39,157 nt of DNA from the IMG/VR virus record IMGVR_UViG_2917408641_000005, one strand, 5' to 3'. The position numbers are program-made. How positions within the stretch are numbered: the stretch's first letter is position 1; each line of letters starts with the position of its first letter. Positions 1 through 3,000 of the stretch are shown here, one piece after another. Source of the stretch: a virus. Lineage: Duplodnaviria; Heunggongvirae; Uroviricota; Caudoviricetes.

Positions 1-3000
1 TTATTTTTGATTTATCGCATATCCTTCTAAGAATTTTTGCGATGCTGCAATATCCGGAGTAAAGATGCGATCCTGCTCGACAAATGGCACGACTTTTCTG
101 TAGGCGGTAAACATCGCTTTTGTTGATTTACCTAATGCCAGTTGTGGATCGGCTTGCAACCGCAAATCGATTGCCTGCGCGGAATGCATCAATTCAATGC
201 CATAAATAATGTTCAAATTATCAACCACCTGTTTCAGTCTTCTGGCTGCATGGTCGTTATTGGCACCGGTATCTTCAATGCCTCCGGCAACCGGTTGAAT
301 ATCGAAAGAAACAGGATTGGCGAGATCAACATTTTCTGCATGCAGCGCGACAAAAGGAATATGCAGCGAACCGAAGCCGTGACCTTTATTACTAGGTGCC
401 GACAGGAAGCGCGTTAAACCCGTAAAGTGATCATCTTCCAGGTGCAGCGAGCGACGCATACTGTTATGCGAAACATGCACTAACGCCACGGTCAGACGCT
501 GGGTGGCAAGCGCAACAGGTAACGATTCGAAGTTTGCCGTCGGGAAAATCCCGCCGCTGATTGCGCCATCTTTAACAAAATATTGCGCGACCTGGCTGGA
601 ATCCTGGTACGCCTTATCAGCATTCAGCACAGTTGCCGGGTTATCGTCAGAACTGTTGATCTGCACGGTAATGATATCTTCTGCGTCATGTAGCGCACGT
701 ACCGACTCAGAAAGGGTATACACCGTTGTTCTGAACGATAACGGATCCTGCAATGCGCGTTTGTCATCCTTATGCCATAAATAAGAACCGATTAACGCAT
801 CGCGGATCTCTTTCGCGGAATCAGCCAACTGCGGGAAAGGACGCACGTCGATCGACTGCGGCAGTACCGGCGCGACGTTACCATTCAACGCTTCCAGACT
901 CATAGCGAAAACCACCGGGCTGACATTCAGCAACTGGCGTGCCGACCGTACCGCTTCAATCGCATACGCCGTGCCAACGCTGTTGTTCGACAAAATCGCC
1001 AGCATATCTTTACCCTGCGGCACCAGTGGTTTAAGCCCCACTTTCGCCAGCGCATCGCCACCACTCATTTCCACGCCATTAACCCGCGCTTTCCATTCCC
1101 CCATCATCACCAGGCCAACGTGTGATGCGAGCATAATATCTGCTGCGCCAATGCTTCCACGCGCCGGATGTATTGATTCACTTGAAGTACGAAAAAAACC
1201 GGGAGGACATTGGATTATTCGGGATTTGGCGGGATTAGATTTAGTGGGGCTTGCAAGCCTGTAGGACAGATTTTAGCCGTTACATCTTGAAACGCGAAAG
1301 ATTGTTGGAAACAGCTTTTGATTCATTAAAGACACGAAAAGCAATTACTTCACGCATCATTTCAAGTACAGCTTCAAAAATGCTTCAAAAACGGTAACAA
1401 CCAGGCTTTCAGCAAGTGATGTGTGTCAAAAACAATCATCACTGTTTGGGTATCTTACATATGTAATTACCTGGAGTGAAGTTTATGTCTTAGCTATTAC
1501 CTGGTTGTTATACAGCTTTCTTTACATCGTTTTCTCTTACAGGGAAATTATGTTCTTTGCCTTCATACTGAGACAAAATCTCTCTTACTTTTTCCGGTGG
1601 TAATGCCTGAAGAGTTTGCAGGGTTTTCTGTTGCTCCACAGTAATCCCTAATGCCTCTAATGCCTTATCTTTACTGACAATTGTAGGCATAAGTCCTTTA
1701 ATCCCTGCTACACGAATGATCTCCACAGCTGCGGCCTGCTCATCTGGTGTTAAGAAGCTCATTGCATAAATCAGCCTCTCATCAACTGTATGGGCGATTG
1801 ATGTATGCACTGGTTTATCAGAAAGTGAGGCTCCTTTAATGGCCCTGCGTGTTTCTTCTGGCAGACTGTTGATGTGATACTCATAAGCGACACCTTTCCC
1901 ACCGTGACGCTGACGTTTTACCCAATCTTCCGCCACAGCTTTCCTGGTAATGTTAGTCGCCAACTTTGGTACACCAGGCATCCCTTCCAGCTCTTTCGCA
2001 TTAAACCATTCTTTGATTTCAAAAGATATCATTTAAAATCCTAGTGATTTCAATAGAGACAAAATAAATTCATATAAAAATCATACTGTTATATGAAATC
2101 ATGATAAATCCATTCAAATCCCTATTGATTTGAAAGTGATTCCACACTACATTGCACGATATGCCGTGAGCTACTTTATAGCGTAGCTCACGGGGGAATC
2201 TGAAAGGATTACATGAAATGCATATGAATAAAAGAACTAACCGCCAAGATTGGCACAGAGCTGACATCGTTGCAGAGCTACGAAAACGCAATATGTCACT
2301 AGCTGAATTGGGAAGATCTAATCATCTTTCGTCTTCAACATTAAAAAATGCTTTGGATAAGAGATATCCGAAAGCGGAGAAAATCATTGCAGATGCACTG
2401 GGAATGACACCGCAAGATATTTGGCCGTCTCGATACTAGGTGCGCTATGAAAGAATGGTATACAGCAAAAGAGTTGCTCGGTTTGGCAGGTTTACCAAAG
2501 CAAGCCACTAACATTACACGTAAGGCACAAAGAGAAGGCTGGGAGTTTAGGCAGGTTGCAGGGACTAAAGGTGTATCATTTGAATTCAATATCAAATCAT
2601 TCCCTGTCGCATTACGTGCTGAAATTCTGTTGCAACAAGGGAGAATTGAAACAAGTCAGGGGTATTTTGAAATCGCCCGCCCCACGCTGGAAGCCCATGA
2701 TTATGATCGTGAGGCACTGTGGAGCAAATGGGATAACGCCAGCGATTCCCAGCGCAGACTTGCTGAAAAATGGTTGCCTGCGGTTCAGACTGCAGACGAA
2801 ATGCTGAACTAGGGGATTTCAACAAAAACGGCTTTTGCGACCGTTGCAGGGCATTACCAGGTCAGCGCATCCACTTTGCGGGACAAGTATTACCAGGTAC
2901 AGAAGTTTGCGAAGCCTGACTGGGCGGCTGCGCTTGTTGATGGACGTGGTGCATCCCGTCGCAACGTTCACAAAAGTGAATTTGACGAGGATGCCTGGCA

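What the first reader, a model, noticed from the sequence alone, without database searches (positions are those of the whole stretch)
1..1345. Prophage left end lies inside a HAL-family host gene; flank CCGGA available for target-duplication test
The Mu-type terminus starts at 1169. The host HAL/PAL-family frame on the minus strand continues without a stop right up to 1168 and lacks its N-terminal third, so the prophage has split the gene, consistent with random Mu-type transposition. The host bases 1164-1168 (CCGGA) should recur immediately after the right end if this is a simple insertion with a 5-bp duplication.
Basis: partly seen in the sequence, partly recalled or inferred. Interest (0 to 1): 0.45.

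Follow-up and report, generated by a model that had tools for sequence, protein, structure and literature searches.

The report
Mu-type prophage splits a lyase gene

Summary
The finding is confirmed and it is ordinary. The window is CP025979.1 (GCA_002900365.1) bases 1679447-1718603.

- **Left end:** the Mu-type left end (TG...) starts at window 1169 and aligns to base 1 of phage D108. The five host bases before it, 1164-1168, are CCGGA.
- **Right end:** it lies 115 bp beyond the window. It reads ...GCGCCGCTTCA, then CCGGA, then the missing 5' part of the same gene on the minus strand.
- **Restoration test:** removing the 38,104-bp prophage and one CCGGA gives a 1671-nt open frame of 556 aa. 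It lines up without gaps with the intact E. coli gene (96% aa) and is 99% identical to an intact E. marmotae protein.
- **Conclusion:** this is a simple Mu-type transposition insertion, not a rearrangement.

Other observations:

- The prophage is a D108-left / Mu-right mosaic.
- In this assembly transposase gene A carries an amber codon and a 42-bp deletion.
- An IS256-family element sits in the G segment.
- The split gene is not a canonical histidase. It lacks the Ala-Ser-Gly (MIO) triad, has a signal-peptide-like N-terminus, and resembles ergothionase-type trimethylammonia-lyases but lacks their key lysine. It closes a hutU-hutI-hutG cluster.

The parts
1..1168 (-). 3' 70% of the host PF00221-family lyase gene (residues 169-556 plus the stop at window 3-1). 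It is cut off from its 5' part by the prophage.
   Evidence: Translation has no internal stop. The called product has a PF00221 match. Megablast to E. coli genomes stops exactly at 1168 at 91% identity, under 'HAL/PAL/TAL family ammonia-lyase'. The fragment rejoins with L004 10847-11349 into a 556-aa frame.
1164..1168 (.). Left copy of the 5-bp target-site duplication CCGGA. The right copy lies outside the window at L004 10842-10846, which is window-equivalent 39273-39277.
   Evidence: The intact E. coli gene has a single CCGGA at this point.
1169..1345 (+). Mu-type left end (attL). It holds the terminal TG and transposase-binding sites L1 (1179-1195), L2 (1284-1300) and L3 (1324-1340).
   Evidence: Consensus scan: L1 has 0 mismatches and L3 has 1; L2 has 2. 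These sit at the positions annotated in D108, 11-27 and 156-172. The end is 98.5% identical to the D108 left end.
1169..39157 (+). Body of the Mu/D108-type prophage. It continues 115 bp past the window to its right end at window-equivalent 39272, for a total of 38,104 bp.
   Evidence: The prophage is collinear with Mu (AF083977.1) and D108 from end to end. Pfam content of the called genes runs from c, ner, A, B, kil, gam, gemA and mor through the tail genes to gin, com and mom.
1508..2032 (-). Repressor gene c, D108 type (174 aa).
   Evidence: ORF list. Same length and position as D108 c at 340-864. The left 2826 bp is 98.5% identical to D108, and Mu does not align before prophage base 1467.
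2447..4393 (+). Transposase gene A, disrupted in this assembly. There is an amber codon TAG at 2810-2812 (codon 122) and a 42-bp in-frame deletion at 3979/3980.
   Evidence: Comparison with D108 and with the SRR6001585 contig, which encodes an intact 662-aa A.
34734..36048 (+). IS256-family insertion sequence (1315 bp) inside the invertible G segment. It has 8-bp duplications ACAAAAAC at 34726-34733 and 36049-36056.
   Evidence: This stretch is the only long one without a Mu or D108 match. It encodes a 402-aa PF00872 transposase.
38432..39157 (+). mom, the last prophage gene. The window ends at its stop codon.
   Evidence: ORF list. PF25680 Mom match.

Best explanation
A Mu-type transposable phage integrated by ordinary Mu transposition into codons 168-170 of a PF00221-family lyase gene of Escherichia marmotae. 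The phage is a mosaic with a D108-like immunity and early left end and a Mu-like right end.

Mechanism, from established Mu biology: the MuA transpososome joins the two 3' ends of the phage to target strands staggered by 5 bp. Repair of the gaps then duplicates those 5 bp. This step is inferred here, not observed.

Shown here: CCGGA sits on both sides. The gene is left in two dead pieces. One is an N-terminal piece of 169 native residues that reads on into attR for 44 more codons. The other is a C-terminal piece of 388 residues.

The lyase is the last gene of a cluster, after hutU, an NCS1-family permease, hutD, hutI and hutG. The expected effect is therefore loss of the lyase alone. No polar effect on the hut genes is expected (inferred).
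For: - **Identical 5-bp flanks:** CCGGA|TGTATTG... on the left and ...CGCTTCA|CCGGA on the right.
- **Single copy in the empty site:** the uninterrupted E. coli gene reads gcgCCGGAattaa with one CCGGA.
- **Restoration:** removing 38,104 bp plus one CCGGA gives exactly 1671 nt / 556 aa with no stop. It aligns without gaps to the E. coli protein at 536/557 positions and 91.6% nucleotide identity.
- **Same-species intact allele:** an E. marmotae protein (P0002, 99% identity) reads straight through the insertion point.
- **Ends:** they match Mu at 59/60 bases on the left and 118/120 on the right.
- **Binding sites:** L1 and L3 are found at the left end, and R1, R2 and R3 at the right end, at most one mismatch each, against 0.2-0.3 hits expected by chance.
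- **Collinearity:** the prophage is collinear with Mu and D108 throughout.
- **Other assemblies:** the left junction is present in a contig assembled from the separate read set SRR6001585. The right junction recurs in GCA_000807695.3, which is 100% identical and probably the same strain.
- **Target sequence:** CCGGA fits 4 of 5 positions of the Mu consensus CYSRG.
Against: Nothing contradicts it. Three limits apply.

- The right end is outside the window, so the test rests on the source chromosome. That locus is 100% identical to the window over 10,726 bp.
- No DNA of a same-species empty site was recovered. Only a protein was found.
- GCA_000807695.3 is 100% identical over 11.3 kb and is probably the same strain, so it is not independent biological evidence.
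Confidence: 0.97

Rival explanations
1. The two prophage ends are products of a Mu-mediated rearrangement (replicative transposition giving an inversion, a deletion or a replicon fusion), and not the two sides of one simple insertion.
For: Replicative Mu transposition can produce such rearrangements (established knowledge). The right end could not be seen inside the window.
Against: A rearrangement would give different 5-bp flanks and non-contiguous host DNA. Here the flanks are identical, and the host halves rejoin into one gap-free 556-aa frame that is collinear with orthologues. The gene order around the site matches E. coli: hutG and the lyase on one side and the LysR regulator on the other.
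Confidence: 0.01
2. The junctions are assembly artefacts, that is, a chimeric join of a prophage contig with host sequence.
For: The gene A lesions differ between two assemblies, so at least one assembly differs from the other in this prophage.
Against: The left junction, with an identical 377-aa fragment and the Mu genes beside it, is present in a contig assembled from the separate read set SRR6001585. The right junction with CCGGA recurs in a second NCBI assembly, although that assembly is 100% identical and probably the same strain. An artefact would not create a precise 5-bp duplication at bona fide Mu termini.
Confidence: 0.01
3. The lyase gene was already a decayed pseudogene before the phage arrived, so the insertion had no functional consequence.
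For: The hut island is dispensable in the genus. E. whittamii keeps only residues 453-556 of the lyase, between sucCD and the LysR gene.
Against: The restored frame has no stop or frameshift and is 99% identical to an intact E. marmotae protein and 96% identical to the E. coli one. All catalytic positions shared with its relatives are kept.
Confidence: 0.05

Closest known systems
Escherichia phages Mu (AF083977.1), D108 (GQ357916.1) and Mu_3F6 (LR595867.1), genus Muvirus
   Same: - The termini are TG...CA.
- The MuA-binding sites are present at both ends.
- The insertion has a 5-bp target duplication.
- Gene order is collinear from c to mom.
- Identity is 98% over most of the genome.
- The left 2.8 kb (c of 174 aa, ner of 73 aa, 5' part of A) is D108-type.
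- The last 120 bp is 118/120 identical to Mu.
   Different: - It is a mosaic of the two phages. It lacks the D108-specific gene 56 between mom and the right end.
- It carries a 1315-bp IS256-family element in the G segment.
- In this assembly gene A has an amber codon and a 14-codon deletion.
- The host is E. marmotae.
Treponema denticola ergothionase (PDB 6S7J/6S7Q) and the periplasmic trimethylammonia-lyases of Shewanella (Swoo_3913, SO_3057, SO_3299; bioRxiv 10.1101/2025.08.13.670108 and 10.64898/2026.04.22.720169)
   Same: These are the closest relatives of the interrupted host gene.

- 6S7J is the best solved-structure match, at E 1.4e-82, against about 1e-48 for histidase.
- The Ala-Ser-Gly triad is absent, with the same one-residue deletion as in ergothionase.
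- The catalytic Tyr, the His, the QDPLSFR motif, the DDNP motif and the IED Glu are conserved.
- The N-terminus is signal-peptide-like, as in the periplasmic Shewanella enzymes.
   Different: - The lysine essential for ergothionase (Lys384 of the T. denticola enzyme) is Ile438 here.
- The histidine betaine lyase Swoo_3913 has Asn at that position.
- The neighbours are catabolic hutU, hutI and hutG, all above their NCBIfam cut-offs, and not a flavocytochrome c or urocanate reductase.
- No activity has been measured for the Escherichia protein.
Histidine ammonia-lyase HutH (P. putida, PDB 1B8F; NCBIfam TIGR01225)
   Same: It belongs to the same superfamily (PF00221) and the same fold family. Most substrate-binding residues are conserved, and it lies in a hut gene cluster.
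   Different: There is no Ala-Ser-Gly triad, so no MIO cofactor can form. It scores 277 bits against the hutH cut-off of 539. It has an N-terminal signal-peptide-like extension.

Membership tests
Mu-type transposable prophage insertion (Muvirus) | Element termini 5'-TG ... CA-3' identical or nearly identical to the Mu ends | tested here: met
   The left 60 bp match Mu at 59/60. The right 120 bp match at 118/120 and end ...CGCTTCA.
Mu-type transposable prophage insertion (Muvirus) | Direct duplication of 5 bp of target DNA at the two ends | tested here: met
   CCGGA lies at window 1164-1168 and at L004 10842-10846. There is a single copy in the uninterrupted E. coli gene.
Mu-type transposable prophage insertion (Muvirus) | Three MuA-binding sites at each end | tested here: met
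   L1 is at 1179-1195 and L3 at 1324-1340. L2 is at 1284-1300 with 2 mismatches, which is not significant on its own. R1, R2 and R3 are at L004 10815-10831(-), 10793-10809(-) and 10770-10786(+).
Mu-type transposable prophage insertion (Muvirus) | Mu gene set and order: c, ner, A (DDE transposase), B (AAA+), then head and tail genes, G segment with gin, com and mom | tested here: met
   Pfam content of the called genes. Collinear blastn against Mu and D108.
Mu-type transposable prophage insertion (Muvirus) | Intact, active transposase, that is, an element still able to transpose or be induced | tested here: not met
   In this assembly gene A has TAG at codon 122 and a 42-bp deletion. A is intact (662 aa) in the SRR6001585 contig. 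Activity itself cannot be tested with these tools. This feature concerns present competence, not the origin of the insertion.
Histidine ammonia-lyase (HutH, MIO-dependent) | Ala-Ser-Gly triad that forms the MIO cofactor | tested here: not met
   The host protein reads GSIGA-ADIMLASH where HAL reads GSVGASGDLAPLAH.
Histidine ammonia-lyase (HutH, MIO-dependent) | Score above the curated hutH equivalog cut-off | tested here: not met
   TIGR01225 scores 277.2 bits against a cut-off of 539.15.
Aromatic amino acid lyase superfamily (PF00221) | Match to the Pfam Lyase_aromatic domain | tested here: met
   Precomputed PF00221 hits lie on both gene fragments and on all homologues.
Ergothionase (ergothioneine trimethylammonia-lyase) | MIO-less active site with conserved Tyr base, His, Gln/Arg and Glu | tested here: met
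   Alignment with 6S7J and seven homologues.
Ergothionase (ergothioneine trimethylammonia-lyase) | Lysine equivalent to Td_ETL Lys384, which binds the thiolate and is essential for ergothionase activity (stated in 10.1101/2025.08.13.670108) | tested here: not met
   The position is Ile438 (LHIPF) in E. marmotae and E. coli. It is Lys (IQKPF, GKPF or EKPV) in the Parasutterella, Sutterella, Turicimonas, Desulfobaculum, Serratia and Pseudomonas homologues.
Histidine betaine trimethylammonia-lyase | Conversion of histidine betaine to urocanate and trimethylamine | not testable with these tools
   Support is indirect only. The protein is MIO-less and lacks the ergothionase Lys. It is also the only lyase in a cluster with bona fide hutU (934 bits; below the thiourocanate hydratase cut-off), hutI and hutG.

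The most novel reading that the evidence does not exclude
The interrupted gene may encode a periplasmic, MIO-less histidine-betaine (hercynine) type trimethylammonia-lyase. It would make urocanate plus trimethylamine outside the cytoplasm. An NCS1-family permease and HutU-HutI-HutG would then take the urocanate up and degrade it. That would be a catabolic, not respiratory, use of this newly recognised enzyme class in Escherichia, and a possible gut source of trimethylamine. The E. marmotae type strain would then be a natural null mutant made by the Mu-type insertion. My evidence does not exclude other substrates. The Lys-less relatives in Enterococcus and in an unidentified bacterium sit in quite different gene neighbourhoods.
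Probability: 0.35. Interest if true: 0.5.

Novelty: new member of a known kind. Interest (0 to 1): 0.17.

Why it matters
For the finding itself, little: it is a clean natural example of Mu-type integration with a 5-bp duplication, in a wild Escherichia species. It is useful mainly as a correct annotation of both prophage ends and of a split gene that automatic pipelines call as two 'aromatic lyase' ORFs of 213 and 377 aa. Two consequences may interest others. First, the type strain of E. marmotae carries a knock-out of the last gene of its hut-like island, and this could affect phenotypic comparisons that use this strain as reference. Second, the gene belongs to the recently recognised MIO-less trimethylammonia-lyase group, but it shows an unreported combination: signal peptide, no ergothionase lysine, and hutUIG neighbours. 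That combination is a testable lead on trimethylamine formation from histidine betaines by Escherichia.

Tried and rejected
1. The first Pfam scan of window:1-1168:- used the wrong frame and failed. The frame was corrected to 1-1167.

2. I looked for a same-species empty site as DNA and found none.
   - The single genome-contig scan with the restored protein returned no intact Escherichia gene. It gave distant homologues and an E. whittamii remnant.
   - An exact 37-mer of the reconstructed E. marmotae empty site gave 0 hits in metagenome contigs.
   - The intact E. marmotae protein P0002 is not on record in the contig index.
   - Same-species evidence is therefore at the protein level only.

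3. The E. coli genome collection holds no allele closer than 91% to the host part, so it could not supply an E. marmotae empty site.

4. I considered and rejected calling the host gene hutH.

5. I considered and rejected calling it an ergothionase, because the essential Lys is absent.

6. I tested whether the Lys-less clade always sits next to hut genes. It does not. The Enterococcus copy lies with a CoA-transferase, an MFS transporter and an FMN oxidoreductase. The copy on another contig lies among hydroxyproline-like catabolic genes. The hut context therefore supports a urocanate-forming role in Escherichia only.

7. A literature search found no description of this prophage in the E. marmotae genomics paper's main text. 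It also found no paper on an E. coli hercynine or urocanate lyase.

Full report
**Observation.** Window 1161-1180 reads gcgCCGGA|TGTATTGATTCA. Megablast against phage records aligns window 1169 with base 1 of phage D108. The first 60 bases differ from Mu at one position. On the minus strand the frame 1167..1 is open down to its own stop at window 3-1 and gives 388 residues. The called product carries a PF00221 (Lyase_aromatic) hit. Megablast of window 1-1600 against 5,426 complete E. coli genomes stops exactly at 1168 in every listed hit. Identity there is 91%, under genes annotated 'HAL/PAL/TAL family ammonia-lyase'. The intact E. coli gene is 1671 nt / 556 aa. The window therefore lacks the first 168 residues, or 30%.

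**Source and right end.** Exact-protein look-ups with the 377-aa C-terminal ORF and with Mom both hit CP025979.1 of assembly GCA_002900365.1. A genomics paper names this assembly as E. marmotae HT073016, the type strain, from marmot faeces. The fetched loci are 100% identical to the window head (11,134 bp) and tail (10,726 bp). This places the window at bases 1679447-1718603 of that record. The window ends at the mom stop codon. In L004 the sequence runs on for 115 bp to ...GCGTTTTTCGTGCGCCGCTTCA. It is then followed by CCGGA and ATTAAAGGTGTAACGCC.... The intact E. coli gene reads ...cccgcgCCGGAattaacggcgtaacgcc... with one CCGGA.

**Restoration test.** I joined window 1-1168 to L004 10847-11349, which removes the prophage and one CCGGA.
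- The result is exactly 1671 nt. It translates to 556 residues with no internal stop.
- It aligns without gaps to the E. coli protein at 536 of 557 positions and 91.6% nucleotide identity.
- A database protein named 'aromatic amino acid lyase [Escherichia marmotae]' (P0002, 535 aa because of a later start call) is 99% identical. It reads ...GVTPLIPARGSIGAADIML... straight through the insertion point.
- The duplication covers gene nucleotides 504-508, which are the last base of Ile168, Pro169 and the first base of Ala170.
- The upstream piece is called as a 213-aa ORF. It holds 169 native residues plus 44 codons read from attR, and it overlaps the end of mom.
- The chance of a 5-base match is 1/1024. 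The exact rejoining of the frame is independent of that.

**Other assemblies.** The left junction, with an identical gene fragment and Mu genes beside it, is present in a 51-kb contig assembled from run SRR6001585. The right junction with CCGGA is present in GCA_000807695.3. That contig is 100% identical over 11.3 kb and is probably the same strain.

**What the element is.** The prophage is 38,104 bp and is collinear with Mu and D108 from end to end.
- The left 2826 bp is 98.5% identical to D108 and holds a 174-aa repressor, a 73-aa Ner and the start of A. Mu does not align before prophage base 1467.
- The last 120 bp is 118/120 identical to Mu, and the D108-specific gene 56 is absent. The phage is therefore a D108/Mu mosaic. 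The closest record over its left 7.8 kb is Mu_3F6 at 98%.
- The MuA-site consensus used in the D108 record finds L1 (1179-1195) and L3 (1324-1340) in the window, against 0.34 hits expected.
- The same consensus finds R1, R2 and R3 in the last 72 bp of the element, against 0.22 expected.
- L2 (1284-1300) appears only when 2 mismatches are allowed, and that is not significant by count.
- The published Mu target consensus is 5'-CYSRG, a property of MuA (PMC7350765). CCGGA matches four of its five positions.

**Mechanism.** Shown here: bona fide Mu ends, identical 5-bp flanks, contiguous host halves, and a complete Mu gene set. Inferred from established Mu biology: MuA, with MuB delivering the target, joined the 3' ends of the phage to target strands staggered by 5 bp, and repair of the gaps produced the duplication. 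The prophage is oriented so that early transcription runs opposite to the lyase gene. The lyase is the last gene after hutU, an NCS1-family permease, hutD, hutI and hutG. A LysR-family gene follows after a 266-bp gap. I therefore expect loss of the lyase alone, without polarity on the hut genes. This is an inference.

**State of the prophage.** This was seen in passing. Relative to D108 and to the SRR6001585 contig, gene A in the window has C-to-T at 2810, which turns CAG into TAG at codon 122. It also has a 42-bp in-frame deletion at 3979/3980 between the short repeats GGCG(C/T)GAAAAA. The SRR6001585 contig encodes an intact 662-aa A. Over about 10 kb each, the two assemblies differ by five transitions plus the deletion in prophage DNA and by two substitutions in host flank. 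I cannot tell whether SRR6001585 is a sister isolate or another read set of the same strain. A 1315-bp IS256-family element lies at 34734-36048 in the G segment, with inverted repeats GAGCCTGT... and an 8-bp duplication ACAAAAAC. It replaces only the last two residues of the tail-fibre assembly protein U.

**What the host gene is.** 'HAL family' is right only at the superfamily level.
- The restored protein scores 277 bits on the hutH equivalog model, whose cut-off is 539.
- Its best solved relative is the T. denticola ergothionase 6S7J at E 1.4e-82, against about 1e-48 for P. putida histidase.
- The Ala-Ser-Gly triad that forms the MIO cofactor is absent. The host reads GSIGA-ADIM, ergothionase SSIGE-GDIT and histidase GSVGASGDLA.
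- The catalytic Tyr, the His, QDPLSFR, DDNP and the IED Glu are conserved.
- Two preprints state that MIO-less members of this family are trimethylammonia-lyases. They also state that Lys384 of the T. denticola enzyme is essential for ergothionase, and that the histidine betaine lyase of Shewanella woodyi has Asn there.
- In E. marmotae and E. coli that position is Ile438.
- The 43-58% identical homologues in Parasutterella, Sutterella, Turicimonas, Desulfobaculum, Serratia and Pseudomonas lundensis keep the Lys.
- All of these proteins have a signal-peptide-like N-terminus. In the host it is MKGLIRRVTVTVVLWSVCSIAMA|K, read directly from the sequence.
- The neighbours are a genuine urocanase (934 bits; below the cut-offs of the thiourocanate hydratase models), hutI and hutG. 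No other lyase lies in the island.

My best inference, at modest confidence, is a periplasmic histidine-betaine-type trimethylammonia-lyase that feeds urocanate to HutUIG. Against generalising: Lys-less relatives in Enterococcus and in an unidentified bacterium lie in unrelated neighbourhoods. No paper in the library describes the Escherichia enzyme. In E. whittamii only residues 453-556 of the gene remain, between sucCD and the LysR gene, so the island is dispensable in the genus.

**Verdict.** The insertion is a simple Mu-type transposition with a 5-bp duplication. It is a new instance of a very well known kind and of low intrinsic interest. The modest extra value lies in the identity of the interrupted gene and in the signs of decay of the prophage.

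Noticed in passing
window 2810-2812 and 3979/3980 (gene A, 2447-4393): Transposase gene A carries an amber codon (CAG to TAG, codon 122) and a 42-bp in-frame deletion between short direct repeats. The contig from SRR6001585, which has the same insertion, encodes an intact 662-aa A. This is either prophage decay after integration or an assembly or culture difference.
   Followed up: partly
window 34734-36048 (duplications at 34726-34733 and 36049-36056): A 1315-bp IS256-family insertion sequence (402-aa PF00872 transposase) lies inside the invertible G segment between U and U'. 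It has an 8-bp target duplication ACAAAAAC and changes only the last two residues of U.
   Followed up: partly
window 1-1168 plus L004 10847-11349: The split host gene is not a canonical histidase. It has no Ala-Ser-Gly (MIO) triad and a signal-peptide-like N-terminus. Its closest solved relative is ergothionase 6S7J, but the essential ergothionase Lys is Ile438. It is the only lyase in a hutU / NCS1 permease / hutD / hutI / hutG cluster. It may be a periplasmic histidine betaine trimethylammonia-lyase.
   Followed up: partly
window 1169-3994 versus L004 10727-10841: The prophage is a mosaic. The left 2.8 kb (repressor, ner, 5' part of A) is D108-type at 98.5%. The right end is Mu-type (118/120) and lacks D108 gene 56.
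   Followed up: yes
L004 10708-11349: The 5' gene fragment is called as a 213-aa ORF: 169 native residues fused to 44 codons read through attR, overlapping the 3' end of mom by 19 nt. Annotation pipelines will report two separate 'aromatic lyase' genes here.
   Followed up: yes
L015 9001-9312 (Escherichia whittamii NZ_JACSQI010000018.1): Only residues 453-556 of the lyase remain, directly after sucC-sucD and before the LysR gene. The whole hut island has been deleted there, leaving a 3' remnant.
   Followed up: partly
L016, L017 (Enterococcus) and L018 (Logan SRR17714370 contig): Other members of the Lys-less 'SLH(I/V)P' clade of these lyases are not next to hut genes. The Enterococcus copy has no signal peptide and lies with a CoA-transferase, an MFS transporter and an FMN oxidoreductase. 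Another copy lies among hydroxyproline-like catabolic genes. Substrates of this clade are probably diverse.
   Followed up: no
window 2027, 2810, 4346, 5158, 7481: The window and the SRR6001585 contig differ by five substitutions, all transitions, plus the deletion in about 10 kb of prophage DNA. In host DNA they differ at 2 positions in the 10 kb beyond the window start and at none in window 1-1168.
   Followed up: no
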